49,743 bases of DNA, from IMG/VR virus record IMGVR_UViG_3300045988_138037; one strand, given 5' to 3'. Under the pieces are notes generated by a model. The model saw only the letters and a list, made by a program, of their open reading frames with translations. It was not told where the DNA came from and did not search any database. A program made the position numbers and the translations under genes. This document shows positions 1-40,817 of this stretch, in pieces; positions within the stretch are counted from its first letter, which is position 1, and each line of letters begins with the position of its first letter. The stretch comes from a virus.

Positions 1-55
1 AAAAAGAATTAAAAGAATTAAAACTTACTAAAAACATCATCATACCTTTTCCTAA
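1..55. repeat. 55-bp terminal direct repeat identical to 49689..49743 (assembly overlap of a circular or circularly permuted genome)
   Basis: The string aaaaagaattaaaagaattaaaacttactaaaaacatcatcataccttttcctaa occurs at both window ends. Confidence 0.95.
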
Positions 56-89
56 CTTCCAACAAAACACTATAATATCTCCTACACAA

Positions 90-2405: not shown

Positions 2406-2474
2406 ACATTGGGTGGCGTTAATTCGCCACTCGTGATAAAATAAATATATATAATTAACAAGAAAGGAAAAGTT

Positions 2475-4601: not shown

Positions 4602-4617
4602 TTGAAAGGAGGATTTT

Positions 4618-9960: not shown

Positions 9961-9972
9961 AGGGGTGAGAAA

Positions 9973-10176
9973 GTGGAGCTTAATATGCAACTTATAAATG
10001 AAATAGTAAATAGCCCTAGTGCTTATTTATCACTGTTTATATTGTTATTAGGGTATGTATTATACTCTTCTCAAACAAGAGAAAAAGAGATGAGAGAACA
10101 ATTAGATAAAACCGTACCTGTTCTTGAAAAAATATTAATACGTTTAGATGTAATCGAAGATAAATTAGAAAGGTAA
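9973..10176 (+). CDS. BhlA/UviB-type holin-like small membrane protein
   Basis: One N-terminal TM (AYLSLFILLLGYVLY) followed by a charged coiled tail (REKEMREQLDK...), as in the BhlA family. An alternative ATG start lies at 9985. Confidence 0.55.
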   Translation: MELNMQLINEIVNSPSAYLSLFILLLGYVLYSSQTREKEMREQLDKTVPVLEKILIRLDVIEDKLER

Positions 10177-13100
10177 TGATGTGTATGGATAAAATTATAA
10201 AACACAAAAACGCATATATTGATGCCTTTAAAAAAGGGGTAACAGGGGTTGAGAACAATGTTCTTTACCCTAATGTTGACTCTACTTCTCCATATTATAC
10301 AGAACTTAATGAAGAACAAGAAGTTAGTTCGTTTGCATATGAAGTAGGGAAAACTTTAAAAGGTAATATTGGTGGTTCTGGTGGTGGAGATAATAGTGGT
10401 ACAACTATACCAAATCATAACCACGATGATAGGTATGCAAAAATAGTTCACGACCACGATGGTAGATATTATACTAAAATTCAAATTGATGAGTGGAGAG
10501 ATAGACTTATAAATGGTGATTTGTTATTCAACAAGATAAATTCAAATCATATACAAGCAGGTACTATCGTAGCAGGTAGTACAATAATAGCAAATGGTGC
10601 AATAGGTGATGCTCAAATCAACAAAGTAAGTGCAGATAAACTTGATGCAGGAGTTGTTGACACATCAAAAGTAACAATATCGGGTGCTAATGGTAATTTA
10701 AAACTTAGAGGTAATAGACTTCAAGTATTTGAAGGCATAGGGTCTAAACAATTTGAAAGAGTATCTTTGGGTGATGTGAATGATGACGGTACTGTATATG
10801 GTCTTAGAGTACGTGGTGCAGACGGTCAAACTATATTGTATGATGAGAATGGAGTATATCGTGAAGGTATAACTGACGGTTCTATAAACAATGATAAAAT
10901 AGCAGGAGATGCTAATATAGACGGTGGTAAACTTAATATACACTCTGTTATAGATAATATAAATAAAGATGGTACAGGTACAATACACGGTACTAAAATA
11001 GATATAGACGGAGAGAGTGTAACATCTAAAATATTTAATATCGAACTTAACCAAGATGAACAATCTGAAACAATAGAAAGACAACAATCAGAAATAGACC
11101 AAAATAAAGAACAAATAAAACTTAAAGTAAGTAACCAAAAGTACACGGAAGATATGGCATCTATGACAAGCAAGTTAGAAAAAGCCGAGTCTGACATAGA
11201 GATTTTAAACGAAGGTATAAAACTTACTGCAAGTAAAACAGAAGTACAAAATCAAATCAACAATCTTAAAGATTTCGTATCAGGAGAATTAGGTGATATA
11301 AGTGTTGGTGGAACTAACTACTTAAATAACTCTGCACCTCGTAAAGCTACTGTTGATGAGTTAATAACTTGGGATAGAACGTTAAACGGTACTCGTAAAT
11401 TAACTTATTGGCAAGATTATAATGATAGTGTAGAAAACCCACAGATAGGTTATCATCCACATATAGACCTAGAAACCTTTCATTTCCCTTGTATAGCTCT
11501 TATAAACCGTAATGCGAAGTTTAGTATGGCTAACAGAGAACTAAGTCTTAGGCAGGAAATAAACAATGAAGAAGATATTATAATACCTAATGAACAATAC
11601 GTAATATCTTTTGACGCATATTCTGATACGAGTTTATTTAGTTTCCACGGAGGACTTTATCATAAAAATGTCGAAAGTAATAATTATAACTACCATAGCG
11701 GAAGAATGGATATAACTATCTCACAAGATAATGTAGGTACTTGGAAAAGGTATAGTTATTCGTTTACAATTCACAAAGGAATAGACACATCAGAACCTAT
11801 CTACTTTGTTATTAATGGTCATAACAATCCAGAGGGTAGTGGTTATATAAAAAATATAAAATTAGAAAAAGGTCATATCGTATCTCAATGGACTCCTTCA
11901 CAAACTGACTCTAATGATAGTTTAAATGATGTTGTAAATGATATGAAAGATTTTGTAAACAAATCTATATCTGAATACAATACAAGTATAGATGTTAGAT
12001 TTGATGGTATAACTCAAAGCGTATCTAAAATAGATAAAACTGTCAATGGTGTTAAAAATGATTTAAGTAACTTAGAGATAGGTGCTAGAAACTTAGTTAA
12101 AAACTCTGCATTTATTGACGGTAAAAATAATTGGATATTAGGTGCTAATGTAATTATTGATACAACTAAAACTTTTAATGGGCATCCTTCTTGTAAAAGT
12201 GCACAAAAAGGACTTGCAAGTAATGGTTACAGAGGGTGTGAAAACTATAACCTACCTAATAAAAACTGCTTGTCTATGAAAAAAGGAGAGATTTATACTG
12301 TAAGTTGTTGGTATTATGTTGAAGATAAAAATACTTTTAATGGAATTCTTGCCCTAGAATGTAAAGGTAAGTTAGACAACAATACTTCTAATTCAGTTAT
12401 AATGCGTGTTAGTGTCGATAAAACTGCTATGGTTGAAAGTCAATGGACTAAGATATTTAAAACAATTACTGTTGATAAAGACTATAGTGATGTGTGTGTC
12501 AGAGCGTGGGTAGGTAGAGATGGTATTGCTTGGTTTACTGATTTCAAACTTGAAAAAGGTAATAAATCTACTGATTGGTCTCCTGCACCAGATGATATGA
12601 AAGATTATGTAGATGAAGCTATAACTAATCAAAGTGCAAGTATAGATATTAAATTTGATAGTATAACAAATAGAGTAGAGTCTACTGAACAAACTGTTGA
12701 TGGTGTCAATCAAAAATATACAGAACTTAAACAAACTGTTGATAGCTTTAATTTTACAGGTTTAGTTAAGTTTGAAGATTTATCTAAACTTGGTGGCACT
12801 ATTATAAATGGTGGTAATATAGACACAACTAATCTTCGTGTAAAAGGTGAGTTGATAAGTGGTCAGATAAATGGTGTAGGTGGTATAAAATTTGCTCAAG
12901 GTGCAATTATATCTTCTTATGACTCTCATGTTGGAGGATATAAAGGCATACAAATATCTGCTCCTAGCATCAAACTTGGTGATAAAGTAGACATACATAG
13001 TGCTATAATGTATGGTGATGTTATTGGTAAAAATAATACTAGCTCTGGTACTACAACTTGGACTATGAGTAGTACAGGTGCTTTGAGTTGTGCTAGTGCT

Positions 13101-13751
13101 AAATTAAGTGGAACTTTGAGTGTAAGTGGTGCTATTTATGGTATGAATAATCTTTCACTAGCAAGAGGTTCACTATATGTACCTATCTTTGAAACAAATA
13201 TTACTTGTGATTATATAAGAGGTGGAAACTCTTCTATAGCATTTACAGATACAGGTCCAATACACTTTATATATAATGGATTGAGAAGTTCATTTATTGC
13301 AGGAGGAGTAATATTTTTACCGCATGGTGGGAATGTAAATTGCGACCACTTTAGATTGGGAGCAGGAATTATGGCATCTCCTTCTAGTGGTAGTTTTCAC
13401 TTTTTAACTGCCAATGGAACTACTTCACCACTATATGCAGGAATATTATATTCGGCAACTAGAATGTCTTTAAATGAACCTATGGTTATATCAAACAATT
13501 CTGTTTTTGATAAGATAAATAGTATAGATGTAATAGAAACTAAAGATGGATTAAGGTTATATAACCCTATACCAACCACAAAAGCCATAGACAAATCAAC
13601 CGAAGTTGTAAAGACTGAATATGATGAGGATAAAAACGAAATAAATACGAGTGTAGATTATACATCTGCAATTTCTACACTATGGAAAGCAGTACAAGAA
13701 TTAAAGCAAGAAAATGAAGAACTTAAAAAACTTATAAAAGGAGAGATTTAA
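10176..13751 (+). CDS. Tail fibre/spike protein with duplicated carbohydrate-binding-like modules and a C-terminal intramolecular-chaperone-like domain
   Basis: NHNHDDRY/HDHDGRY His motifs. Two modules end in KLEKGHIVSQWTPS and KLEKGNKSTDWSPAPDD. The C-terminus VDYTSAISTLWKAVQELKQENEELKKL resembles S74-type chaperone domains. Confidence 0.65.
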   Translation: MMCMDKIIKHKNAYIDAFKKGVTGVENNVLYPNVDSTSPYYTELNEEQEVSSFAYEVGKTLKGNIGGSGGGDNSGTTIPNHNHDDRYAKIVHDHDGRYYTKIQIDEWRDRLINGDLLFNKINSNHIQAGTIVAGSTIIANGAIGDAQINKVSADKLDAGVVDTSKVTISGANGNLKLRGNRLQVFEGIGSKQFERVSLGDVNDDGTVYGLRVRGADGQTILYDENGVYREGITDGSINNDKIAGDANIDGGKLNIHSVIDNINKDGTGTIHGTKIDIDGESVTSKIFNIELNQDEQSETIERQQSEIDQNKEQIKLKVSNQKYTEDMASMTSKLEKAESDIEILNEGIKLTASKTEVQNQINNLKDFVSGELGDISVGGTNYLNNSAPRKATVDELITWDRTLNGTRKLTYWQDYNDSVENPQIGYHPHIDLETFHFPCIALINRNAKFSMANRELSLRQEINNEEDIIIPNEQYVISFDAYSDTSLFSFHGGLYHKNVESNNYNYHSGRMDITISQDNVGTWKRYSYSFTIHKGIDTSEPIYFVINGHNNPEGSGYIKNIKLEKGHIVSQWTPSQTDSNDSLNDVVNDMKDFVNKSISEYNTSIDVRFDGITQSVSKIDKTVNGVKNDLSNLEIGARNLVKNSAFIDGKNNWILGANVIIDTTKTFNGHPSCKSAQKGLASNGYRGCENYNLPNKNCLSMKKGEIYTVSCWYYVEDKNTFNGILALECKGKLDNNTSNSVIMRVSVDKTAMVESQWTKIFKTITVDKDYSDVCVRAWVGRDGIAWFTDFKLEKGNKSTDWSPAPDDMKDYVDEAITNQSASIDIKFDSITNRVESTEQTVDGVNQKYTELKQTVDSFNFTGLVKFEDLSKLGGTIINGGNIDTTNLRVKGELISGQINGVGGIKFAQGAIISSYDSHVGGYKGIQISAPSIKLGDKVDIHSAIMYGDVIGKNNTSSGTTTWTMSSTGALSCASAKLSGTLSVSGAIYGMNNLSLARGSLYVPIFETNITCDYIRGGNSSIAFTDTGPIHFIYNGLRSSFIAGGVIFLPHGGNVNCDHFRLGAGIMASPSSGSFHFLTANGTTSPLYAGILYSATRMSLNEPMVISNNSVFDKINSIDVIETKDGLRLYNPIPTTKAIDKSTEVVKTEYDEDKNEINTSVDYTSAISTLWKAVQELKQENEELKKLIKGEI

Positions 13752-13752
13752 T

Positions 13753-14439
13753 ATGAAAATAGGAATAGATATGGGTCATACATTAAGTGGAGAAGGAACG
13801 GGTTCTCAAGGTTGTGGTTACAAAGAACAAAACTTAACTAGAGAACTTGGTAAAATAGTAATAGAAATGCTTAAAAAAGAAGGTCATACTGTTTATGATT
13901 GTACAGTAGACAAATCAAGTAACAATGCTCAACAACTTATAGATAGAGTTAATAAAGCTAATAAACAACCACTAGATTTATTCGTGTCAATACACTTTAA
14001 CGCTTGTGTTAATGATGTGAAGGGTGATGGTCGTACAACAGGTACAGAAGTACTTTTACACTCTATGTCAAGTAAAGCGAAACCTTACGCAGAAAGAATA
14101 GTAAAGAAAATCGCAAATGTAGGTCTTAAAAATAGAGGAGTTAAAACACATAACGCATATGTACTTAAACATACTAAAGCACCTGCATTATTAATAGAGA
14201 CTTGCTTTATAGATGATAGAGATGATATGAATGTATACTTAAAAAGCCCTAGAAAGGTCGCTAAAGCGATTGTAGAAGGTATATTAGATAAAACTATAAC
14301 TGACGTTGTTGAAACGCCTAAAAATGGCTTCTATCGTGTTTTAGTGGGTAGTTATAAGGATAAAAATAACGCTATTAAAAGACAAGAAGAACTTAAATCA
14401 AAAGGTATAGAAGCATCGTTAATATACTTCCAAGAATAA
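13753..14439 (+). CDS. Endolysin: N-acetylmuramoyl-L-alanine amidase (Amidase_3-like) with a C-terminal SPOR domain
   Basis: GIDMGH..., SIHFNA and ETCFIDD motifs. The C-terminus FYRVLVGSYKDKNNAIKRQEELKSKGIEASLIY is SPOR-like. Confidence 0.85.
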   Translation: MKIGIDMGHTLSGEGTGSQGCGYKEQNLTRELGKIVIEMLKKEGHTVYDCTVDKSSNNAQQLIDRVNKANKQPLDLFVSIHFNACVNDVKGDGRTTGTEVLLHSMSSKAKPYAERIVKKIANVGLKNRGVKTHNAYVLKHTKAPALLIETCFIDDRDDMNVYLKSPRKVAKAIVEGILDKTITDVVETPKNGFYRVLVGSYKDKNNAIKRQEELKSKGIEASLIYFQE

Positions 14440-14707: not shown

Positions 14708-14781
14708 TGGCAGGAGTGGTAAGAATTGAACTCACGTCTACGGTTTTGGAGACCGTTGTGTTACCATTACACCACACTCCT
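14708..14781 (-). tRNA. trnW: tRNA-Trp (anticodon CCA) with encoded CCA end
   Basis: The reverse complement AGGAGTGTGGTGTAATGGTAACACAACGGTCTCCAAAACCGTAGACGTGAGTTCAATTCTTACCACTCCTGCCA folds as a 74-nt cloverleaf. It has a 7-bp acceptor stem, anticodon loop CTCCAAA and T-loop TTCAATT. Confidence 0.9.
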
Positions 14782-15509: not shown

Positions 15510-15678
15510 TTGTCCACATATGTTATCCACAGAGTTATCCACAGATATTAACAACTTATCCACAGGTTTTGGATAACATAAAAAAGTGCTACACACGTTG
15601 CAATTACTTGTGTGTAGCTTTGTCGAAAAAAACTTATCCACAGATTTACTAAAAAGACTTGACAAGTTTTTGTCCACA
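15510..15678 (+). promoter_or_regulatory. Cluster of seven DnaA-box-like 9-mers: four perfect TTATCCACA, two TTGTCCACA, one inverted tttggataa
   Basis: Boxes at 15510-18, 15523-31, 15535-43, 15556-64, 15568-76 (inverted, 1 mismatch), 15634-42 and 15670-78. A 9-bp inverted repeat gctacacac/gtgtgtagc lies between them. Confidence 0.75.
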
Positions 15679-16101
15679 TACCTTTTCTGGGTATAATTTT
15701 ACTTCTATTCTCGGTAGTTCTTTGTCTAAACTTACGTGCATATCACGTACTAAAACCCACCTATCTTCTTTGAACGCTACGTGTTCTAGTGCGTCCATAA
15801 CTATTTTGTGCATATTGTGGCAATCCCTTCTACGTTTATCTGGGAAGTAATACGTTAATTCACATACTAACCACACACCTTCTTCTTCTAATTTGTAATT
15901 TTGTGATTTGACTGCATTATCTACAATCATCATCACCTTTTGCATATAATCTTGACCTTTTTTCGTCATAAACCTTCTACCACGTTTAAACATATAAAGA
16001 TGGTTTATACTCACCCCAAGAGGTATCACTACGTTTAATTCTTGATTTGGGTATTTAGGTTTTAATCTTATTAAGTCGTCCATACTCATTTCATCCCCCA
16101 T
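15649..16101 (-). CDS. rusA: RusA-family Holliday junction resolvase
   Basis: PDKRRRDCHNMHKIVMDALEHVAFKEDRWV aligns with E. coli RusA [31 protein letters not shown]. Confidence 0.85.
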   Translation of the reverse strand: MGDEMSMDDLIRLKPKYPNQELNVVIPLGVSINHLYMFKRGRRFMTKKGQDYMQKVMMIVDNAVKSQNYKLEEEGVWLVCELTYYFPDKRRRDCHNMHKIVMDALEHVAFKEDRWVLVRDMHVSLDKELPRIEVKLYPEKVCGQKLVKSF

Positions 16102-23743: not shown

Positions 23744-24112
23744 TTATTTGGTATTTTTTTCAAGTCTTTGTATCTCTCTATCTATATACCAACGAGCTTT
23801 TTTCAAATCTTCTAACTCATCATTTTTATAAGGTGCTCTTGCTATGTATTTTATTGCATTACCTAGTGAAAAACCTAAATTCCAAGACTCTATAAAATCT
23901 ATGGCTTCTATTTCACCTACATTGTAATGATTTGGATGATTAATTGTTTCCTTGCTTGTTAATAACGCAGGTTCTATATTTATTGATAACGCAGGGTAAT
24001 AGTTACCACACGTGTCTGTGCCTTCTGTTCTCATATCAATAAACTCACTATCACGGTTTGTGCAAAAATTATTTTTGTGCCAATCACACGTATTACATAT
24101 AAAACAACTCAT
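23744..24112 (-). CDS. DUF3310-family protein with an N-terminal Cys-rich segment
   Basis: NHPNHYNVGEIEAIDFIESW...GNAIKYIARAPYKN..EDLKKARWYIDREI. The ATG at 24112 overlaps the primase stop by 1 nt. Confidence 0.6.
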   Translation of the reverse strand: MSCFICNTCDWHKNNFCTNRDSEFIDMRTEGTDTCGNYYPALSINIEPALLTSKETINHPNHYNVGEIEAIDFIESWNLGFSLGNAIKYIARAPYKNDELEDLKKARWYIDREIQRLEKNTK

Positions 24113-25098
24113 TATAATATCTTCTCCCTCTGTTCGTATAATCGTTTTAATTCTTGTATTTCGCAACTTCCTGGGTCTACACCGTCTGGCATTTTTATAA
24201 CCCATTGATTTGCTTTATAACGCATCATATCTATTGCTTTTTTCGTTGCATTAAGACCTGCTTCATCTCCGTCATAACTCCATATAACGTCTTTTCCACT
24301 TCTTAATAATATTCTGTATTGCTCTTCTGTTAAATGTGCTCCAAATGTACATACTGCGTTTTCATAACCTGCCTCAAACCAACGCCACACATCAAACATA
24401 CCCTCACATATTATTATCTCTCCATAACCCTTACAAGAGTCTATGTTGTATAATATCTGTCCTGTTTCCATTGTGTGTGGTGCGTGAAACCACTTAGGGT
24501 TATCTTTTGCACGTATTTTACGAAGTGAAACACCAATTCTTACATCATCTATAGTTATAGGTATGACAAGTCTTTCGTAGAGTGTGAATATCCCTCCACT
24601 TTTCTTCTCAACCTCGATTTCTTTTGCATATCTCAAATCAAAATGTCTTAAAGTTTCTTCATTAAAGTTTCTGAAACTCTTAACAGAACTCATTTCGGCT
24701 TTAGGTGTGTATTCCTCTATAACCTTCTTTGTTCTTCTCTTTGATTTGATGTACTTCATAAATCTTTCAACTTCTTTTAAATAGTCATTTTTGCGTTCTG
24801 CTATGATGAGGTTATCTATGTCTATTTCAAGTATTTGAGCCACTATTTTTACTGCTTGTGGAAAAGGCACATCTTCCACTTTTTCTACAAATGTAAAAAC
24901 ATCACCAACTCCACATTCAGAATTGGTATGACAAGCCCAAAGAAATTCCTCATTAACAACGAACGCAGTAGGATTATCTCCTTTATGTATAGGACAAGCA
25001 GAACGTATAAATTCTCCATAATACTGAAAATCAACTCCATAGTGATTAAGTATACGCTCTACATTCATATTTTCTTTTATAACACCTACTGCATCCAT
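24112..25098 (-). CDS. dnaG: DnaG-like DNA primase (CHC2 zinc finger plus TOPRIM)
   Basis: CPIHKGDNPTAFVV zinc finger; IIICEGMFDV and SYDGDEAG TOPRIM motifs. Confidence 0.85.
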   Translation of the reverse strand: MDAVGVIKENMNVERILNHYGVDFQYYGEFIRSACPIHKGDNPTAFVVNEEFLWACHTNSECGVGDVFTFVEKVEDVPFPQAVKIVAQILEIDIDNLIIAERKNDYLKEVERFMKYIKSKRRTKKVIEEYTPKAEMSSVKSFRNFNEETLRHFDLRYAKEIEVEKKSGGIFTLYERLVIPITIDDVRIGVSLRKIRAKDNPKWFHAPHTMETGQILYNIDSCKGYGEIIICEGMFDVWRWFEAGYENAVCTFGAHLTEEQYRILLRSGKDVIWSYDGDEAGLNATKKAIDMMRYKANQWVIKMPDGVDPGSCEIQELKRLYEQREKIL

Positions 25099-32266: not shown

Positions 32267-33706
32267 TTATAATTCCTCTCTTTCTTCTAACTCTTCTTCG
32301 TAACAATCTTCGCACATTCCTTCTTTTTCTTCTTGACAGTCTGTACAGTACGTATATCCACACTCTTTGCATTGAAATGTATCTTCTTTTCTTACTGCAT
32401 CTCCACATTCTGCACAATCTACAAACAGTTCTTCATAGCAATCTTCACAATACCATTTATCATTTGTGAAGTTCATTTCATCCTTTCTACACTCTTCACC
32501 ACACTCACAACAAGTTTCAATTAAGTCTGAATAACAATCATCACAATGCCATTCATTGTCTATTAAGCTCATTTCATCCTTTCTACACTCTTCACCACAC
32601 TCATAACAAGTTGCAATTAATTCACAATAACAATCATCACAGTAAACATCATCTCCATACCAAGTCATATCATTGTTATGTGCTTTTTCATCACAATTAT
32701 CACAACGGCTATAATCATTTTCATAACATCTTTCACATACATACATACTATTATTATCTATCCAATAAGCGTGGTCATCACACATATGGTCTCCACAATC
32801 TTCGCAATAAAATGCACTATCTTCATCTAATTCCTCATCACATATATGGCAAACTTTGCACTCTCTATCATATGGATTTTCTAAATCATTGCCTCCTTCG
32901 TCTATACAATCCCAATTACGTATGTATGCTCCTGCTGCATCATCTGTATTAACTTGTTGTAAGAAGTTTAAAACAACTATAAACGAAGCATATATCTCGT
33001 AGTTGTTCATATTCTCAACAAGCATAGACCCTGCACTACCCCAACACGCTTCTCCATTTTCTCCATTAACGTGTGGGTGTGGGTCTTTATCTGTCCAATA
33101 TGATTTTCTGTTATAATCCTCATCTAAACCATTTATATAACAAGTCATATCGTCAAAATCAAAACTTAAAAGATATTTATTACCTTTAAACTTGTTACCT
33201 TTCTCATCATATATATCTATGTAATCGGTTTTTATTTCAACTACTTTACCTGTTGGTCTCGCTACTGCACTTACTACATATTTATGGCTTAATATAGCTT
33301 CCATATCACTTGTATAATCTCTACCTTCACCTTCACTACTTAATACTTTTACTCTGCTCATCGCATTTTTGTATGAATTCCAAGCAACATCCATATATTC
33401 TTTATATCTTTTTATATCTCTAAGGTATTCTTGTTCTTCATTTTTAGCTCTTTCTAAAGCCTTTTTATTATCTTTCAAAGCTATCTCATTAAACGCTTTG
33501 CTTAACTCTTTAACTCTATCTTCCATTGTCTTTTCTTTCCTTTCAACTAATTCAAATCTTTCCATTAAATGTCTCTCACTTGGATACTCAACTAAATTCA
33601 TCCAACTGTTACTTAATATCTCTTTAACAGTAGCAGTATCTCCTACTACCATTTTCCCAGAATTTCCATATACTCTTCTAACCACATCTCCTACTTCAAA
33701 TATCAT
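32267..33706 (-). CDS. E2 (UBC)-like domain protein fused to a C-terminal array of CxxC zinc ribbons (RING-like)
   Basis: YLLSFDFDD...DPHPHVNGENGEACWGSAG resembles UBC HPN-x(5-7)-C. The C-terminal 200 aa carry about 15 CxxC pairs, including a 96-nt tandem duplication. Confidence 0.5.
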   Translation of the reverse strand: MIFEVGDVVRRVYGNSGKMVVGDTATVKEILSNSWMNLVEYPSERHLMERFELVERKEKTMEDRVKELSKAFNEIALKDNKKALERAKNEEQEYLRDIKRYKEYMDVAWNSYKNAMSRVKVLSSEGEGRDYTSDMEAILSHKYVVSAVARPTGKVVEIKTDYIDIYDEKGNKFKGNKYLLSFDFDDMTCYINGLDEDYNRKSYWTDKDPHPHVNGENGEACWGSAGSMLVENMNNYEIYASFIVVLNFLQQVNTDDAAGAYIRNWDCIDEGGNDLENPYDRECKVCHICDEELDEDSAFYCEDCGDHMCDDHAYWIDNNSMYVCERCYENDYSRCDNCDEKAHNNDMTWYGDDVYCDDCYCELIATCYECGEECRKDEMSLIDNEWHCDDCYSDLIETCCECGEECRKDEMNFTNDKWYCEDCYEELFVDCAECGDAVRKEDTFQCKECGYTYCTDCQEEKEGMCEDCYEEELEEREEL

Positions 33707-35886: not shown

Positions 35887-37278
35887 CTATACTAACATAT
35901 CAAGACCTAAAACTTTAAGTATATGCTCTGGTTGACTAACTATAAATGCACCCCATTGGAACGTTGGGTTCACTTCTTTTATAACATCTCTTTGCTCAAA
36001 TACCATTTTTCTAAACTCTGCATAATGTTGCTCTTCTACTAAAGCATATTTAACTTCTCCACCTTGTACAAAGTAAGGTAGTATTCCATTCATCTCTTCT
36101 GGTACATCTTGACCTACACAAGAGTATATTCTGAATACGAAGTTAGTAAGTTCTTTAGCTTGTTGTTGTTCTTCTTTTAATACTAATGAACGAACTTCCC
36201 TACTCTCTCTAGCACTAAACTTAACTAATGTATTATCTTCCATTATAGCTTGTCTAAATCTTTGAGTTGATTTGTTATTAGCAACTTTATTTAATCTAAC
36301 TCTATGCTCTAAATCTCTACATAACATTTCAAAGTTTTGATTAGGTATAGTACAAAGGTAAGTTAATCTAGTACATTCATATTCACCAAGTTGTATGTAT
36401 AAGTTCTTTAAAGTGTTCATTTGAGTGTTATCTAGTTTATTACCTTCATAGTAGTTAGTTATATAATCATATGTTTGTATGAAGTTGAACGCACTCTCTC
36501 TGTTGAACTTAACTTTTATAGTTTCTCTTAATGAACTCCAATTAAATGTATAGTATAACTTATCTTCTGGTCTGTACTCGAAATCTCTAACATCTATATT
36601 GAATTCAGATTTAAGAGTTTCGTGAGTTTCTATATATCTAGCAACATCTGCTATTCTTCTTACTTGTGAGTCTGTTGGTTCTTGTAATTCATAACTCATA
36701 GCCATTAAATCTTTATTGTGCTCGAACCACTCTCTTTTGTGTATATTATTCTTAACTTCTTCAACTATTAGAGCAAAATCACTTCTATGTTTTAATGTCT
36801 CTAATGCTTCTGATAACATTAATCTTTGGTTATAGAATGATATACCGCTTAAAACTTTTATTATTTCTGATGCTTGGTTAGCATTTAAGTTATTTATGAA
36901 CTCTATTTGTTTCGCATCTATGTCCATACCTACTCTATCTCTAAGACCTGCCATTATAGTTTCTGCTTGTCTTGTTGATACTTGTGCAGTAGTAGTGTTG
37001 TAATGTTTCTTACAAAGTTCTTTTAACTTATTACTGAAAGATTTAACTATTATCTTTTGTCTAAATGCTTCTGACTCGTTAAATACAAAATTTACCTCAT
37101 CATCTAACTTAACTTCTTTCATATTGTTTTTAAACTCATCTTCTTTTAAAGTAACTTCTAAGTTAAGTATTTGATTTACTATATTATTTTGTACTCTCTC
37201 GTTACCTCTTTCAAGTGCTTCCATATATTCTGCCTTTAAGTGTTGTAACATTTTTTCTAATTCTCTTCTGTTTCTCAT
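35887..37278 (-). CDS. Hypothetical early protein (463 aa)
   Basis: SD aaaggag; long ORF; no motif recognised. Confidence 0.6.
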   Translation of the reverse strand: MRNRRELEKMLQHLKAEYMEALERGNERVQNNIVNQILNLEVTLKEDEFKNNMKEVKLDDEVNFVFNESEAFRQKIIVKSFSNKLKELCKKHYNTTTAQVSTRQAETIMAGLRDRVGMDIDAKQIEFINNLNANQASEIIKVLSGISFYNQRLMLSEALETLKHRSDFALIVEEVKNNIHKREWFEHNKDLMAMSYELQEPTDSQVRRIADVARYIETHETLKSEFNIDVRDFEYRPEDKLYYTFNWSSLRETIKVKFNRESAFNFIQTYDYITNYYEGNKLDNTQMNTLKNLYIQLGEYECTRLTYLCTIPNQNFEMLCRDLEHRVRLNKVANNKSTQRFRQAIMEDNTLVKFSARESREVRSLVLKEEQQQAKELTNFVFRIYSCVGQDVPEEMNGILPYFVQGGEVKYALVEEQHYAEFRKMVFEQRDVIKEVNPTFQWGAFIVSQPEHILKVLGLDMLV

Positions 37279-38521: not shown

Positions 38522-39034
38522 TTACTTAACATCTCCTAAGTAGTAATAATGTCCAAATGAACCACTAGAGTAACTACCTTTACGTTTTAAATTATATTTA
38601 ATTTTAGGTAATAAACTTGAATTAGAGTTCATTAATGTATTTTCAACCTCTGATTTATTTAATTTCATAGCTTTTGAAACTATTTTTGAAAGTGCATCAA
38701 CATTTAGACAGAATTTTGATTCAAACACATAATCTTTACCAACTCTCTTTTTTAAGAATTCGTTTCTAGCACTTTCATTGTTATATATTTTTTTATAGTA
38801 AGTTAATACATTGTGTGCAACCTCATCAACTGTATTTTCTACAAATGTATAAACACCTTCTATAACTTTAACAACACCGTTTTTATTAACTCTAGGCTTT
38901 ATTACACCTGTATTTATAGCTTCTGTAAGTTGAGTTATTATTGATGAGTCATTAACACTATCAACACTAACTTTAACTTTATAATTCATAACTAATCCTA
39001 TAACCATTTCTTCAACTGTAAATAATTCATTCAT
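38522..39034 (-). CDS. Hypothetical early protein (first gene of the leftward unit)
   Basis: The ATG at 39034 follows SD taaggagg. The track start at 39067 has no SD. Confidence 0.55.
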   Translation of the reverse strand: MNELFTVEEMVIGLVMNYKVKVSVDSVNDSSIITQLTEAINTGVIKPRVNKNGVVKVIEGVYTFVENTVDEVAHNVLTYYKKIYNNESARNEFLKKRVGKDYVFESKFCLNVDALSKIVSKAMKLNKSEVENTLMNSNSSLLPKIKYNLKRKGSYSSGSFGHYYYLGDVK

Positions 39035-39083
39035 TTTAATTTCCTCCTTATGTACGTAACAACGCACTACTTAATTAATATAT

Positions 39084-39134
39084 ATTTATACTTGCAACAC
39101 ACACCCTTTAGGGTGTACTCCCCAAAACGGTTTT
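39084..39134 (-). promoter_or_regulatory. Copy 2 of the conserved ~52-bp hairpin element, upstream of gene 38522..39034
   Basis: atttatacttgcaacacacaccctttagggtgtactccccaaaacggtttt versus copy 1: 2 substitutions and a 1-nt indel. Confidence 0.6.
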
Positions 39135-39339
39135 CAAAACAATAAATACATTAGCCGATATACTTGTGATTAGAGTTAGAAAGATTTGATAATGTGTAAA
39201 TGCTTTGCGAAAATTAATTATAATTAATTTTCTAGGTTTGAACGTAGTGAAAACCTATAATAAGATACGTATTATAATGTTATAAAAGAAGTATATAAAA
39301 AGGAGTAGAATAACTCGTAAATTGATGTGAAATTTAACA

Positions 39340-40010
39340 TAATGTGTACGTGTGGTGTGTACTTGTAGTGAATGTGTATGTGAATGTGTAAATTCACTTG
39401 GTGAAGTGTGTTCTTGTGGTAGGTGGGAAATAGGGGGCGTAGCCCCAAACGTACTGCACATATGCGTGGGAGGTAGTTACGTATTACCTAACGTTGTGGA
39501 AGCGTTGTGTGAACTTCCTAGAGCGTGTGAGATACGTTGTGTCTACAAGTTGTGTATGTGCGTGGTGGACGGAGTTCAAAACGAACGAATGTGAGGCTTT
39601 GGGCGAAGTCATAAAGCGAAGCTCAACACGAGGACTACGTTGCTCGAGTGTTTGGGCGGAGCGTAACGGCGAAGCCGTGGACAAATCACTACACTAAATA
39701 CGGTAAATACGTTATTTATACGTGTCTCAAAACTCGATATCGAAAAGCCGAAGGCATACTTGAACAAACACGCCTTATCGTTTGTGAACGCCCTCTGCAA
39801 GAGCACACACACACTTGACCAATGTTATACCACCCCCAGGGTAACGGAAAACGACGCACCATATTTATGTGTGTATGTGTGTGTTGTGTGTGGGTGGTAG
39901 TGTGTCGAACGAAAACATACTCCTTTCCCAACGAGTTCCCAACAAGACCCCCCATACGAGAAAACAGGAGTCCCTCATCAGTATACATAGATAACGTGTA
40001 TATAGGTGTA
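39340..40010. ncRNA. ~670-nt GC-rich non-coding island; candidate large structured RNA (strand and class undetermined)
   Basis: Only short overlapping ORFs on both strands. Local hairpins ggggc-gta-gcccc, acggc-gaa-gccgt and gcc-gaa-ggc. Long-range complementarity taccaccc/gggtggta, and a CA-run against a GT-run. Confidence 0.35.
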
Positions 40011-40221
40011 TAAATGTGAAAAGCCCCCTACAAACGTAGAGAGCTTCTTTTTACTATTTGAAACATTCAAAAATCTAGAATTTATGTGTTGTATAAAAAT
40101 ATCGTATATATATTATAACACAAACGCCGAAAAAGTATGTAACAAAATAGTTACAAAATTGTAACTTTTTAAAAACGTAGTGTTTTCAACACTTTCACAA
40201 ATCAGAAGAAAATACAAGGGC

Positions 40222-40250
40222 TTGACAACAATTTTTTTATAAGTTACTAT
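40222..40250 (+). promoter_or_regulatory. Candidate sigma-70-type promoter for the rightward (late/structural) unit
   Basis: TTGACA, a 17-nt spacer, then TACTAT. Confidence 0.4.
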
Positions 40251-40424
40251 ATACGTATAAATACGTGTAGTAAACGTGTATGAAACGTTCTATAAACCTC
40301 CGTTGGAGGTTTAGTGATTTTCATTACATTCAAATCACACAAATATAAACATATAAATACGTATCTTCCTGTTACTTAAATCTTTGATTTGAGTAACTAA
40401 AACGAGTGAAACGAGTTTTATAGA

Positions 40425-40476
40425 ACGTATTAATAACGTATATAACACGTATATAAACGTGTATATAACGTATAAA
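40425..40476 (+). repeat. Array of five ACGT(G)TAT(ATAA) direct repeats at 10-12 bp spacing, just upstream of the first rightward ORF
   Basis: ACGT cores at 40425, 40436, 40447, 40457 and 40468. A similar array has cores at 40253, 40263, 40274 and 40285. Confidence 0.7.
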
Positions 40477-40487
40477 GGGGTGAAAGA

Positions 40488-40817
40488 GTGATACAATTAT
40501 ACTTAAATATATTTGGTTTAATAGTAGATTTAAACGTAGCAGTTCCTAAACGTAGAAAGCCGAAAAACGATAATATCAATATACAAGAAAAAGCAATTTT
40601 TTATGATGAGATAGAAGAAGAGGAAGTTAATTACGTTAAACCTACTGATATAGAACTTCAAGCTAAACGTTTTGAAGAAGAGTTAAATAATATGGGTATA
40701 TACGATATACCAAACGCATCAGATATACCGCCTACCTATGAAATTCAAGATGATGTCGAGATAATTACAAACGAATTTGAAAAAGAACAACAAGATATGA
40801 TAGAAAGAAGGAGATAG
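40488..40817 (+). CDS. Hypothetical acidic protein
   Basis: GTG start after SD aaagggg; 109 aa. Confidence 0.45.
   Translation: MIQLYLNIFGLIVDLNVAVPKRRKPKNDNINIQEKAIFYDEIEEEEVNYVKPTDIELQAKRFEEELNNMGIYDIPNASDIPPTYEIQDDVEIITNEFEKEQQDMIERRR

What the first reader, a model, noticed from the sequence alone, without database searches (positions are those of the whole stretch)
39340..40010. ~670-nt GC-rich, stop-poor non-coding island in the divergent intergenic region: candidate large structured RNA
Between the leftward early unit and the rightward late unit lies about 1.4 kb with no convincing gene. Its core has a composition quite unlike the AT-rich genome. It produces only short overlapping ORFs on both strands with odd Cys/Val/His-rich translations.

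Several compact hairpins with GNRA-like or triloop caps are visible: ggggc-gta-gcccc, acggc-gaa-gccgt and gcc-gaa-ggc. There is a tandem gtgaatgtgta duplication. Long-range complementarity is also present: taccaccc at about 39829 pairs with gggtggta at about 39891, and a CA-run at about 39806 pairs with GT-runs at about 39868-39904.

In AT-rich phages, GC-rich islands are usually RNA genes. Large ornate phage-associated RNAs (ROOL and GOLLD classes) are of this size, but I cannot assign a class by eye.
Basis: partly seen in the sequence, partly recalled or inferred. Interest (0 to 1): 0.72.

Follow-up and report, generated by a model that had tools for sequence, protein, structure and literature searches.

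The report
New large structured non-coding phage element
Between the early and late genes of an abundant uncultivated gut/sewage phage lies a roughly 700-base gene-free stretch whose + strand folds into many small evolutionarily maintained hairpins, most likely a new large non-coding RNA that no catalogue lists and whose job is unknown.

Summary
Window 39320-40010 is the only GC-rich island (0.45-0.50 against about 0.30) in a 49.7-kb AT-rich phage genome, and it holds no gene.

It is not ROOL, GOLLD, OLE, raiA, HEARO or an intron: Rfam gives nothing, even at E<=10.

Homologous islands sit at the same place in more than 40 metagenomic contigs. They are mosaic and diverge much faster than the flanking genes: islands next to identical TerS proteins are only 74-95% identical.

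Helices are kept by compensatory changes. In 39593-39790, 99.5% of cells pair, 11 pairs change on both sides, and covariation is 0.345 against 0.154 in shuffles (0/500).

The + strand is the folding strand: 42 G·U cells against 0 A·C, consensus energy -26.8 against -12.8 kcal/mol, and a lower MFE z-score in 8 of 9 homologues.

Building blocks:
- C-GNA-G triloop hairpins
- a GAA/GGA internal loop
- hairpins with the loop ACGCCTTATC
- a conserved 3' multi-hairpin domain

No transcript is shown.

Best reading: a new family of large structured phage RNA (about 0.5). Main rival: an origin-type element that works as displaced single-stranded DNA or an R-loop (about 0.2).

The parts
39323..39334 (+). 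Conserved start motif TTGATGTGAAA(T) that marks the left border of the island
   Evidence: Near-invariant (AATTGATGTGRAA) in all lineages, including L005, L098 and L186, while the sequence after it diverges.
39335..39430 (+). G/T-rich, low-complexity 5' segment (TGTGT, GTGAATGTGTA, GGTGGG repeats). It is hypervariable in length and sequence.
   Evidence: TRF arrays at 39342-39390. GC skew is +0.29 to +0.42. It aligns poorly even between loci with identical TerS. Assembly breakpoints cluster at its two ends (L004, L005, L236, L237).
39434..39446 (+). Hairpin GGGGC-GTA-GCCCC, followed by AAAC
   Evidence: Invariant in every homologue, including the distant L098/L186 lineage. L005 has a second copy with a different stem, GGAGGGC-GTA-GCCCTTT.
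39447..39612 (+). Variable module block. It has allelic versions, and modules are present or absent between phages. It includes TGGAC-GGA-GTTCA at 39566-39578 and the helix GCTNAAA/TTTNGGC.
   Evidence: Module presence and absence seen. RNAalifold on 14 variants predicts 39 pairs but only 2 with double changes, so the structure is weakly tested here.
39616..39662 (+). Long hairpin H1/H2. Pairs 39616-17 with 39661-62, and 39621-33 with 39644-57. A GAA/GGA purine internal loop is formed by CGAAG (39617-21) and CGGAG (39657-61).
   Evidence: Pair counts:
- pair 39616/39662: AU 9, GC 8, GU 2, AC 0
- helix 2: 11 pairs, 4 with double changes, 99% paired
39666..39678 (+). Hairpin ACGGC-GAA-GCCGT (GNA triloop)
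   Evidence: Alleles are ACGGC/GCCGT, TTGCC/GGCAT and TAGCC/GGCTA, with loops GAA or GTA. Two of 4 pairs have double changes.
39734..39755 (+). TCG-ATAT-CGA mini-helix inside the palindrome TCGATATCGA, then hairpin GCC-GAA-GGC
   Evidence: Stem alleles are GCC/GGC, TGC/GCA, TGC/GCG, CGC/GCG, GGC/GCC and GTGC/GCAC, with loops GAA or GTA.
39764..39785 (+). Hairpin ACAAAC-[ACGCCTTATC]-GTTTGT (conserved-loop type)
   Evidence: Nine different stems carry this loop across lineages: GCTAAAC, GCGAC, GAAAC, AACACAAC, GGCACAAC, AGGCAC and others. L186 has four or five copies. L073 shows double changes.
39786..39901 (+). Conserved 3' domain:
- Pc: CTCT-GCA-AGAG (39793-96 / 39800-03)
- P1: CA run 39804-14 with TG run 39881-92, plus 39789-92 with 39893-96
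- P3: hairpin with C-rich loop CCACCCCCAGG (39824-31 / 39839-45)
- P4: 39854-59 / 39869-74
   Evidence: - It is the most conserved part within the lineage.
- Pc becomes CAAC-GCA-GTTG in L239 and CAAC-GGA-GTTG in L005.
- The same P1/P3/P4 layout appears in single-sequence folds of L098, L186 and L005.
- The P4 stem is replaced between L098 and L186 while the loop GGTAC is kept.
- A covariance model built from the window lineage finds L005 (E 1e-5), L098 (0.007) and L186 (0.06).
- The motif CACCCC-N-GGGG..AAAA is the only part shared with relatives at 53-62% TerL identity: L014, L016, L017, L019.
39905..40000 (+). C/A-rich tail (CCCAAC repeats, CCCCCC) ending in ATCAGTATACATAGATAACG. It is probably dispensable.
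   Evidence: An HNH_3/NUMOD4 endonuclease gene on the - strand replaces it in L083, L085, L087, L220 and L230.
40021..40052 (.). Hairpin with flanking A and T runs (AAAAGCCCCCTAC-AAAC-GTAGAGAGCTTCTTTTT). It is a terminator-like site usable in both directions and a possible 3' end of a + strand transcript.
   Evidence: Sequence. It closes the MFE fold. It is present only in the window/L002 type; L005 has two other + strand terminators, and the L239 lineage has - strand ones.
39271..39299 (-). Conserved leftward promoter TTTATA-17-TATAAT, probably the early promoter. Its -10 lies in the palindrome ATTATAAT, which also reads TATAAT rightward towards the island.
   Evidence: Promoter scan gives 10 of 12 matches. 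The 75 nt before the island are almost invariant in 30 loci. L186 has TTTACA-18-TATAAT on the + strand.

Best explanation
Shown. The island is a conserved but fast-evolving non-coding element. Its + strand adopts a defined single-stranded fold with four parts:
- a G/U-rich variable 5' stretch
- an invariant GGGGC-GUA-GCCCC hairpin
- a variable number of small hairpin modules (C-GNA-G triloops, a GAA/GGA purine internal loop, hairpins with the loop ACGCCUUAUC)
- a conserved 3' domain of about 115 nt, in which a CA-run/UG-run helix encloses three hairpins, one with a C-rich loop

Inferred.
- The molecule is most likely a 600-950 nt non-coding RNA of a family not yet catalogued.
- It would be transcribed rightward from the promoter region shared with the early promoter.
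- It would end before the late promoter.

Speculative.
- The loops are conserved, the stems are free to change, and the number of modules varies. I therefore think it works as a multivalent platform: the repeated loops would bind many copies of a protein, from phage or host, early in infection.
- Priming of replication by this transcript is the next most likely role.
For: Non-coding and positionally conserved:
- no conserved ORF, and no gene called in the homologous loci
- an island at the same place in relatives down to 85% TerL identity, in the L098/L186 lineage (TerL not compared), and in part down to 53% TerL identity

Structure:
- MFE z-scores of -2.5 to -8.6 on the + strand
- in 19 variants of 39593-39790: 29 pairs, 99.5% of cells paired, 11 pairs with double changes
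- covariation 0.345 against 0.154±0.012 in shuffles (0/500), and <=0.07 when partners are slid

Strand and RNA-like pattern:
- 42 G·U cells and 0 A·C cells; U·G or G·U is the commonest state at several pairs
- consensus energy -26.8 (+) against -12.8 (-) kcal/mol
- the + strand has the lower z-score in 8 of 9 homologues
- G/A at 39616 covaries with C/U at 39662 through G·U intermediates, which places two CGNAG motifs opposite each other as a purine-rich internal loop

Conserved loops on changing stems:
- 35 of 49 distinct CGNAG contexts have stems of 3 bp or more
- 9 different stems carry the ACGCCTTATC loop
- the GGTAC-loop hairpin has three compensatory pairs between L098 and L186

The 3' domain recurs in three lineages and is found by a model built on one of them.

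A GC-rich island in an AT-rich genome is the classic signature used to find structured RNAs (PMC8723152, PMC11109978).
Against: - No transcript is demonstrated. The only strongly conserved -35/-10 pair next to the island reads leftward, away from it.
- + strand promoter candidates are weak or differ by lineage, and 3' terminators are not conserved.
- C-GNA-G triloops are far more stable in DNA than in RNA, and they are known from ssDNA priming sites and N4 promoters (PMC13037366).
- In the smallest hairpins G·T and A·C mismatches are equally common, so these give no strand signal.
- Both strands have negative z-scores in L098 and L186.
- Long-range helix P1 rests on repetitive CA/TG tracts, so it is consistent with pairing but not truly compensatory.
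- Modules are shuffled as blocks, which can inflate shuffle-based covariation statistics.
- The proposed mechanism, multivalent protein binding, has no direct evidence.
Confidence: 0.5

Rival explanations
1. Origin-type element that acts as single-stranded DNA or an R-loop.
- Transcription or negative supercoiling between the divergent operons exposes the G/T-rich + strand.
- Its mini-hairpins, a motif shown to bind SSB poorly, serve as priming or loading signals for the phage primase and DnaB-like helicase. The transcript may itself prime synthesis.
- The models are Ceduovirus (c2) PE1-T, ColE1 RNA II, and the G4 / RSF1010 ssi signals.
For: Position:
- The island sits exactly at the point where the two transcription units diverge, and at the minimum of cumulative GC skew.
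- Forks leaving from here would run in the same direction as all genes.

Composition and motifs:
- Strong G over C excess on the + strand at the 5' side.
- All four GCGNAGC heptamers plus one CCGAAGG are clustered on one strand.
- These are the motifs found at G4/St-1/alpha3 priming sites and in RSF1010 ssiA. The DNA form is much more stable than the RNA form and binds SSB poorly (PMC13037366).

Precedent and machinery:
- In c2-type phages the ori is a non-coding, transcript-producing region between divergent early and late modules. It is the most variable part of otherwise conserved genomes (PMC7150918).
- The phage encodes DnaE, a DnaB-like helicase, a primase and an SSB, but no recognisable initiator.
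Against: - A cluster of seven DnaA boxes, four of them perfect TTATCCACA, lies at 15510-15680. It is a competing origin candidate.
- 600-950 nt with a multi-helix 3' domain is much larger than known ssi or pas signals.
- G·U is the commonest state at several pairs, which fits RNA better than DNA.
- Chimeric c2 origins were reported non-functional, whereas these islands are freely mosaic (PMC7150918).
- No iterons adjoin the core in the window lineage.
Confidence: 0.22
2. Double-stranded DNA element: a packaging site (cos/pac), or a field of protein-binding repeats and inverted repeats between the divergent promoters. The apparent covariation would come from co-evolving binding sites.
For: - It lies about 0.9 kb upstream of TerS.
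- The deeply conserved core contains an inverted repeat, CCCC-N(0-4)-GGGG.
- In distant relatives the core is followed by phage-specific direct repeats (L016, L019).
- Palindromes that cannot fold on their own are conserved (TCGATATCGA, GTATAC).
- Many contigs end inside or next to the island.
Against: - TerL is of the type found in Stx and T4-like phages, and from my own knowledge these package by headful rather than at a cos site; this was not tested.
- Contig ends coincide with the borders of hypervariable or HNH-polymorphic segments, which points to assembly breaks.
- The spacer of the core inverted repeat varies from 0 to 4 nt, which is hard to reconcile with a dimeric binding site.
- Local hairpins change their whole stem sequence while keeping the loop. 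There are 0 A·C against 42 G·U cells, which duplex DNA would not select for.
- The better candidates for TerS or regulator sites are the 11-nt-period ACGTATA arrays at 40248-40465.
Confidence: 0.08
3. Array of N4-type hairpin promoters. Hairpins extruded on the template (+) strand would be recognised by a phage RNA polymerase that transcribes leftward into the early genes.
For: - Stems of 3-5 bp carry 3-nt G-N-A loops, including GCGGAGC, the N4 promoter heptamer (PMC13037366).
- The loops lie on the strand that is the template for the leftward early genes.
- A 1780-aa virion-module ORF has no detectable homologue.
Against: - No RNA polymerase was found by Pfam, PHROGs, PDB sequence search or motif scan in any large ORF.
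- A conserved sigma-70-type promoter already lies between the island and the first early gene.
- Eight or more hairpins are packed in 400 nt with no genes between them.
- Some CGNAG motifs are internal-loop strands rather than hairpin loops.
Confidence: 0.04
4. No function of its own: a recombination-prone junk or hitchhiker segment, for example remnants of mobile DNA and homing-endonuclease traffic. It would be GC-rich by origin, with hairpins as a by-product.
For: - Extreme mosaicism.
- Module gain and loss.
- An HNH endonuclease inserted in some variants.
- The 3' tail is dispensable.
Against: - It is retained at the same position in all relatives examined that have enough flanking sequence.
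- Some motifs are invariant: the GTA hairpin and the 3' domain.
- Compensatory changes keep 99.5% of cells paired.
- z-scores reach -8.6.
Confidence: 0.08

Closest known systems
ROOL and GOLLD (large ornate phage- and prophage-associated RNAs; Rfam; cryo-EM in PMC12286853)
   Same: - Size class (about 600-800 nt).
- Carried by phages of Firmicutes-type hosts.
- Non-coding, and GC-rich relative to the genome.
- Many helices, and an unknown function.
   Different: - No match to either covariance model, even at E<=10.
- This element is modular, with a variable copy number of small hairpins, and it is hypervariable between near-identical phages.
- No evidence for or against multimeric assembly.
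Ceduovirus (lactococcal phage c2) replication origin with its non-coding transcript PE1-T (PMC7150918)
   Same: - A non-coding region between divergently oriented early and late modules.
- The most variable region of otherwise conserved genomes.
- Function is thought to depend on transcript length and structure.
   Different: - No sequence similarity was found: blastn against GenBank phage records found no match.
- c2 origins fall into three discrete, non-recombining types, whereas these islands are freely mosaic.
- The PE1/PE2 promoter arrangement could not be established here.
- The folding strand is opposite to the early-gene sense strand.
Mini-hairpin DNA motifs (GCGNAGC / CCGAAGG) at priming and transcription start signals: G4/St-1/alpha3 complementary-strand origins, RSF1010 ssiA, N4 early promoters (PMC13037366)
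   Same: - The same heptamers occur: GCGTAGC, GCGAAGC twice, GCGGAGC, CCGAAGG.
- They are closed by C-G and extended by short stems.
- All lie on one strand.
   Different: - Known signals are one to three hairpins within 40-150 nt of DNA that is single-stranded for a known reason. Here eight or more lie inside a 700-nt fold with long helices.
- At least two of the motifs pair across an internal loop.
- No cognate RepB'-type primase or N4-type polymerase was found.
ColE1 RNA II (structured pre-primer RNA forming a persistent hybrid at the origin). This comparison rests on my own knowledge.
   Same: - Several hundred nucleotides of structured non-coding RNA.
- G-rich and C-rich segments.
- Located at a presumptive start point of replication.
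   Different: - No antisense RNA I-like partner was identified, and no RNase H / Pol I logic is testable.
- No sequence or structure similarity.
CsrB/RsmZ-type sponge RNAs (many hairpins presenting the same loop motif to one protein). This comparison rests on my own knowledge.
   Same: - Repeated small hairpins with conserved loops (GNA, ACGCCUUAUC) on variable stems.
- Variable number of units.
   Different: - The loops are not restricted to GGA.
- No CsrA-type partner was identified.
- There is an additional conserved multi-helix domain.
- No Rfam match.

Membership tests
ROOL (Rfam) | Match to the family covariance model | tested here: not met
   No match in the window at gathering score, nor in 38900-40600 at E<=10.
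GOLLD (Rfam) | Match to the family covariance model | tested here: not met
   no match.
OLE, raiA, HEARO, group I / group II introns, RNase P, tmRNA, 6S (Rfam) | Match to any of the 4227 Rfam 15 models | tested here: not met
   - The only gathering-level match in the window is a tRNA at 14711-14781.
- The best sub-threshold matches inside the island (39320-40010) have E of 1.2 or more and go to unrelated families.
Structured non-coding RNA (generic) | Secondary structure maintained by compensatory substitutions, with G·U tolerated and A·C avoided | tested here: met
   - 11 pairs with double changes and 99.5% of cells paired.
- Covariation exceeds all 500 shuffles and all slid controls.
- 42 G·U cells against 0 A·C cells.
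Structured non-coding RNA (generic) | An accumulating transcript with defined ends | not testable with these tools
   Only consensus promoter and terminator scans were possible. They are ambiguous.
c2-type transcript-dependent phage origin | Non-coding region between divergent early and late modules, variable between related phages | tested here: met
   definition from PMC7150918.
c2-type transcript-dependent phage origin | Flanked by two early promoters (PE1, PE2), with the non-coding transcript made in the early direction | tested here: inconclusive
   - A PE2-like promoter is present at 39299-39271 on the - strand.
- A leftward promoter-like TGnTATAAT at about 40117-40125 exists only in some variants, and it is inverted in L098.
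- The folding strand is +.
c2-type transcript-dependent phage origin | Supports autonomous plasmid replication | not testable with these tools
   This needs a cloning experiment.
G4 / RSF1010-type single-strand initiation signal | GCGNAGC / CCGAAGG mini-hairpin within a short stem-loop on one strand | tested here: met
G4 / RSF1010-type single-strand initiation signal | Recognition by a primase on single-stranded DNA | not testable with these tools
   A DnaG-type primase gene is present at 24112-25098. Binding cannot be tested.
N4-type hairpin promoter | Stem of 5-7 bp with a 3-nt purine-rich loop on the template strand | tested here: met
   GGGGC-GTA-GCCCC, ACGGC-GAA-GCCGT and TGGAC-GGA-GTTCA lie on the + strand, which is the template for the leftward genes.
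N4-type hairpin promoter | A phage-encoded T7-like (virion) RNA polymerase | tested here: not met
   - No RNA polymerase family or motif was found in any large ORF.
- The 1780-aa ORF remains unclassified, so this is absence of evidence only.
cos packaging site | A terminase of a cos type, and genome ends at the site | tested here: inconclusive
   - The nearest cultured TerL relatives (<37% identity) are Stx-converting and T4-like phages. From my own knowledge these package by headful.
- Contig ends in the island coincide with polymorphic segment borders.
- Physical ends cannot be mapped here.

The most novel reading that the evidence does not exclude
The island would encode a new class of large (600-950 nt), modular, rapidly diversifying phage RNA.
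- Its repeated loop-conserved hairpins would act as decoys or a scaffold for a host protein, for example an immune sensor or nuclease.
- Alternatively it would self-assemble like the ornate RNAs ROOL and GOLLD.
- That would make it an RNA-level player in the phage-host arms race, carried by one of the more abundant uncultivated phage groups of gut and sewage metagenomes.
Probability: 0.2. Interest if true: 0.85.

Novelty: new member of a known kind. Interest (0 to 1): 0.62.

Why it matters
Large structured non-coding RNAs of phages are rare. ROOL and GOLLD are the main examples, and their functions are still unknown.

What this element offers:
- It is well supported by covariation.
- It is absent from Rfam.
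- It is present in many metagenomic contigs. One TerS variant alone is indexed in 984 blocks of the collection.
- It varies strongly between phages whose neighbouring genes are identical. That gives a natural mutational series for working out the structure and for finding what it binds.

If instead it is the replication origin, it would be a second, independent case of a transcript- or hairpin-based origin at the early/late divergence point. It would also be the first large natural array of GNA mini-hairpins.

Either outcome can be tested directly. Strand-specific RNA-seq plus origin mapping in one enrichment culture or one deeply sequenced sample would do it.

Tried and rejected
1. Known RNA families. 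Rfam 15 on the whole window at gathering score, and on 38900-40600 at E<=10, gave only a tRNA elsewhere.
2. Similar DNA in cultured phages. megablast and blastn against 50,697 GenBank phage records gave no match. TerL tblastn gave 37% identity or less.
3. Protein-coding reading. ORFs are 90 aa or shorter on both strands, are not conserved, and are broken by indels. Rejected.
4. More homologues by DNA pattern.
   - GGGGCGTAGCCCCAA(AC) found the family but mostly unrelated stable hairpins: 6 true among 119 metagenome hits.
   - GGGAACGTTAGTAACAC found only loci already known.
   - ACACGCCTTATCGTT gave only chance hits in coding regions.
   - The productive route was exact look-up of TerS variants.
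5. Strand assignment from wobble pairs in the mini-hairpins was uninformative. G·T and A·C counts match chance at helix ends. The longer helices settled the strand.
6. Covariance model R1 of the 3' domain reaches L005, L098 and L186 but not the relatives at 53-62% TerL identity. I did not iterate it.
7. N4-like polymerase. Pfam, PHROGs, PDB sequence search and motif regexes were all negative.
8. DnaA boxes in the island. There are none of note: one 1-mismatch site at 40005. The cluster is at 15.5 kb.
9. cos site. Contig ends near the island turned out to coincide with hypervariable or HNH-polymorphic borders.
10. Host. The genome-collection scan found only small binned MAG contigs (Ruminococcus, Oscillospiraceae, Cellulosilyticum) and a distant Peribacillus prophage. 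This suggests Clostridia but is not reliable.
11. The 5' module block (39447-39612) has few double changes, so its fold stays weakly supported.
Full report
**Setting.**
- The window looks like a complete, circularly permuted phage genome of 49.7 kb with 31% GC.
- A rightward late unit (TerS-like 40907, TerL 41319, P22/SU10-type portal, tail genes) runs off the right end and continues at 1-14439.
- A leftward early unit runs from 39067 down to 15649. It encodes a DnaE-type polymerase, a DnaB-like helicase, a primase, an SSB and an exonuclease.
- The finding lies in the 1.4-kb gap where the two units diverge.
- This phage group has no cultured relative. There is no DNA match in GenBank phages, and TerL identity is 37% or less.
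- It is common in metagenomes. One TerS variant is indexed in 984 blocks of the collection and another in 426, with sample names typical of sewage and gut surveys.

- GC rises to 0.45-0.50 between 39400 and 40000, against 0.25-0.30 on both sides. No other 1-kb bin of the genome exceeds 0.37.
- The gap holds only overlapping ORFs of 25-90 aa on both strands.
- The three hairpins, the tandem GTGAATGTGTA repeat and the long-range complementarities are all at the stated positions.
- The caps are G-N-A triloops closed by C-G, not GNRA tetraloops.

**Not a known RNA family.**
- Rfam 15 finds only a tRNA (14711-14781) at gathering thresholds.
- In 38900-40600 nothing scores better than E=1.2 with permissive filters.
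- ROOL, GOLLD, OLE, raiA, HEARO and the introns are therefore excluded as families.

**Relatives.**
- TerL-based scans, DNA patterns and exact look-ups of TerS variants gave more than 40 distinct homologous islands. All lie between the same conserved leftward promoter and the late promoter.
- No gene is called in the gap, except an HNH_3/NUMOD4 endonuclease gene. In five loci it replaces the C-rich 3' tail.
- The island evolves much faster than its surroundings. Ten loci with an identical TerS protein have islands only 74-95% identical.
- Differences are largely whole modules swapped, gained or lost.
- L005 (TerL 85%) has no blastn similarity yet keeps recognisable landmarks.
- A further lineage (L098, L186) keeps the start motif AATTGATGTGGAA, the G/T-rich 5' part, the invariant GGGGCGTAGCCCCAAAC hairpin and the 3' domain. 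Almost everything else differs.
- Relatives at 53-62% TerL identity share only a short core, CACCCC-N(0-4)-GGGG...AAAA. A flanking helix changes with it:
  - window: TAC-CACCC / GGGTG-GTA
  - L016: ATA-CACCC / GGGTG-TAT
  - L014: TA-CACC / GGTG-TA
  - L019: TACGCAC / GTGTGTA
In the window lineage it competes with helices P3 and P1a, and I could not decide between them.

**Evidence for a maintained fold.**
- Thermodynamics. + strand MFE z-scores are -2.5 (window), -6.2 (L005), -8.6 (L098) and -5.4 (L186) against dinucleotide shuffles.
- Covariation in 39593-39790, from 19 distinct variants:
  - RNAalifold gives six helices and 29 pairs.
  - 99.5% of 546 cells form standard pairs, and 11 pairs show changes on both sides.
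  - The covariation score is 0.345, against 0.154±0.012 in 500 shuffles (none reaches it) and 0.07 or less when partners are slid by 1-3 columns.
- Conserved loops on changing stems:
  - The hairpin at 39747-55 occurs as GCC/GGC, TGC/GCA, TGC/GCG, CGC/GCG, GGC/GCC and GTGC/GCAC, always with a GAA or GUA loop.
  - The loop ACGCCTTATC sits on nine different stems, with four or five copies in L186.
  - The GGTAC-loop hairpin has different stems in L098 and L186.
- Motif statistics:
  - CGNAG occurs 7 times on the island's + strand, 6 of them closing 3 bp or more, and once on the - strand.
  - The other 48 kb have 118 copies on both strands, with about 10% in stems.
  - All four GCGNAGC heptamers of the genome lie at 39437-39675 on the + strand.
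- An instructive detail. The G/A polymorphism at 39616 looked like an A·C mismatch in a mini-hairpin. It in fact covaries with C/U at 39662 (AU 9, GC 8, GU 2). CGAAG (39617) and CGGAG (39657) therefore face each other as a GAA/GGA purine internal loop inside one long hairpin.

**Which strand, and RNA or DNA?**
- In the supported helices there are 42 G·U cells and no A·C cell. U·G or G·U is the commonest state at several pairs.
- The consensus energy is -26.8 kcal/mol on the + strand against -12.8 on the - strand.
- The + strand has the lower z-score in 8 of 9 homologues.
- The conserved G and A of the triloops also make sense only on the + strand.
- So the + strand folds, and the pattern is the one expected of RNA.
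- RNA is not proven, for four reasons:
  - The strongest conserved promoter next to the island (TTTATA-17-TATAAT, 39299-39271) reads leftward into the early genes.
  - Its -10 lies in the palindrome ATTATAAT, which also gives a rightward TATAAT. The rightward -35 is good only in L186.
  - + strand terminators follow the island in the window and in L005 but are not conserved.
  - GCGNAGC and CCGAAGG are the 'mini-hairpin DNA' motifs. They are far more stable as DNA than as RNA, bind SSB poorly, and are known from G4-type and RSF1010 priming signals and from N4 promoters (PMC13037366).

**The 3' domain (39786-39901)** is the most conserved part.
- Elements:
  - Pc is a GCA-triloop hairpin. It is CTCT/AGAG in the window and CAAC/GTTG in L239 and L005.
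  - P1 pairs the CA run with the TG run.
  - P3 is a hairpin presenting the C-rich motif CCACCCCCAGG.
  - P4 is a hairpin whose sequence differs between lineages.
- Single-sequence folds of L098, L186 and L005 give the same layout.
- A covariance model built only on the window lineage finds them at the expected place, with E of 1e-5, 0.007 and 0.06.
- P1 rests on repetitive tracts, so it is consistent with pairing rather than strictly compensatory.

**What it most likely is.**
- I take as shown that this is a functional, non-coding element whose + strand must fold.
- I think a new family of large structured phage RNA is the best single reading (about 0.5).
- For mechanism I favour a multivalent platform: identical loops on free stems, in variable number, would bind many copies of a protein.
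- Replication priming by the transcript comes second.

**The main rival (about 0.2)** is that the element acts at the DNA level as an origin: an R-loop or supercoil-extruded + strand carrying mini-hairpin priming signals.
- In favour:
  - It lies at the divergence point and at the GC-skew minimum.
  - The 5' half is G-rich on the + strand.
  - The Ceduovirus c2 origin is a precedent. It is a non-coding, transcript-producing, hypervariable region between divergent early and late modules (PMC7150918).
- Against:
  - Seven DnaA boxes at 15510-15680 are a competing origin candidate.
  - The size, and the RNA-like wobble pattern.

**Less likely readings.**
- A duplex packaging or protein-binding field (0.08).
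- N4-type hairpin promoters (0.04). No polymerase was found.
- Functionless mosaic DNA (0.08).

**Novelty and interest.**
- The element fails every family test I could run, so it is a new family.
- As a kind of thing it falls within what is already known: a large structured non-coding element of a phage, whether RNA gene or transcript-type origin.
- It is interesting for four reasons. It is abundant. It is strongly supported by covariation. Its architecture is unusual (an array of GNA hairpins plus a conserved junction domain). It diversifies next to the phage's accessory gene hot spots.
- The decisive experiments are simple: strand-specific RNA-seq, origin and terminus mapping, and structure probing.

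Noticed in passing
window 15510-15680: Cluster of seven DnaA boxes. Four are perfect TTATCCACA (15523, 15535, 15556, 15634), plus TTGTCCACA twice and TTATCCAAA once. It lies in the convergent junction between the tRNA / late-unit end and the early-unit end. One box sits in the spacer of a TTGACA-17-TATAAT site (15659-15693). It is a candidate DnaA-dependent origin, a DnaA sink, or a DnaA-regulated promoter.
   Followed up: partly
window 40222-40480: Late promoter TTGACA-17-TACTAT (40222-40250), followed by a hairpin plus T-run (40293-40320) whose stem covaries between lineages (AAACCTCC/GGAGGTTT, AAATGCC/GGCATTT, AAAGCCC/GGGCTTT). The whole is flanked by 53-nt inverted arrays of ACGTATA-type repeats with an 11-nt period (40248-40300 and 40413-40465). 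It looks like a terminator-controlled (antitermination?) late leader with binding sites for a regulator or TerS. L019 has the same layout with different repeats.
   Followed up: partly
window 39068-39270: The early leader is mosaic. Alternative 'cassettes' of palindromes (GAAAATTAATTATAATTAATTTTC; TGTGGATAATTGCAAAGCAATTAGACACA, which contains a perfect DnaA box; CGAAAATGATTTATCATTTTC) are each followed by a hairpin. There is also a covarying hairpin at 39100-39115. This looks like exchangeable operator or immunity types. The first early gene also differs between loci (62 to 220 aa).
   Followed up: partly
L083 2208-2660, L085 2256-2708, L087 2208-2660, L220 102-554, L230 2009-2461: A free-standing HNH_3 (+NUMOD4) homing-endonuclease gene on the - strand, with its own extended -10 promoter. 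It is inserted right after the TG run of the island and replaces the C-rich tail. The polymorphism explains why several contigs end at exactly this junction (L221, L227, L229).
   Followed up: partly
L081-L090, L210-L237: genes after TerL and between TerS and TerL: Variable accessory genes beside the packaging genes in relatives: Tad2-like (one or two copies), Sequestin, DUF6275, Dam or C5 DNA methylase, and a Macro-domain protein at the start of the early unit. These are anti-defence hot spots on both sides of the island.
   Followed up: no
window 4618-9960: A 1780-aa ORF in the virion module has no Pfam, PHROG or PDB sequence match at all. The same holds for the 708-aa (2475-4601), 463-aa (35887-37278) and 479-aa (32267-33706) ORFs.
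   Followed up: partly
window 40139-40175: Conserved overlapping palindromes TGTAACAAAATAGTTACA and GTTACAAAATTGTAAC, followed by TTTTT, just upstream of the late promoter. Present in all lineages. It could be an operator or a weak terminator.
   Followed up: no
window 39323-39331; L005 17-25; L098 (rc) about 3796-3815: The island begins with a tiny reading frame: TTG-ATG-TGA in the window, ATG-ATG-TGA after GGGAGAG in L005, and ATG-TGG-AAG-AAT-ACG-TAA in L098/L186. It may be a start-stop or mini-ORF, or a coincidence.
   Followed up: no
window 40017-40122: A 105-nt segment present only in the window/L002 type. It carries the bidirectional terminator-like hairpin and a leftward TGnTATAAT. The same TGTGTTATAATAT motif is in the rightward orientation in L098/L186. 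It may be a small invertible or mobile promoter-terminator cassette.
   Followed up: no
L036-L080 and L091-L209 (pattern hits): The 15-17-mer GGGGCGTAGCCCCAA(AC) occurs once each in well over a hundred unrelated viral and metagenomic contigs, often as TTTGGGGCGTAGCCCCAAA. It seems to be a widespread very stable GTA-triloop hairpin and is not specific to this element.
   Followed up: no
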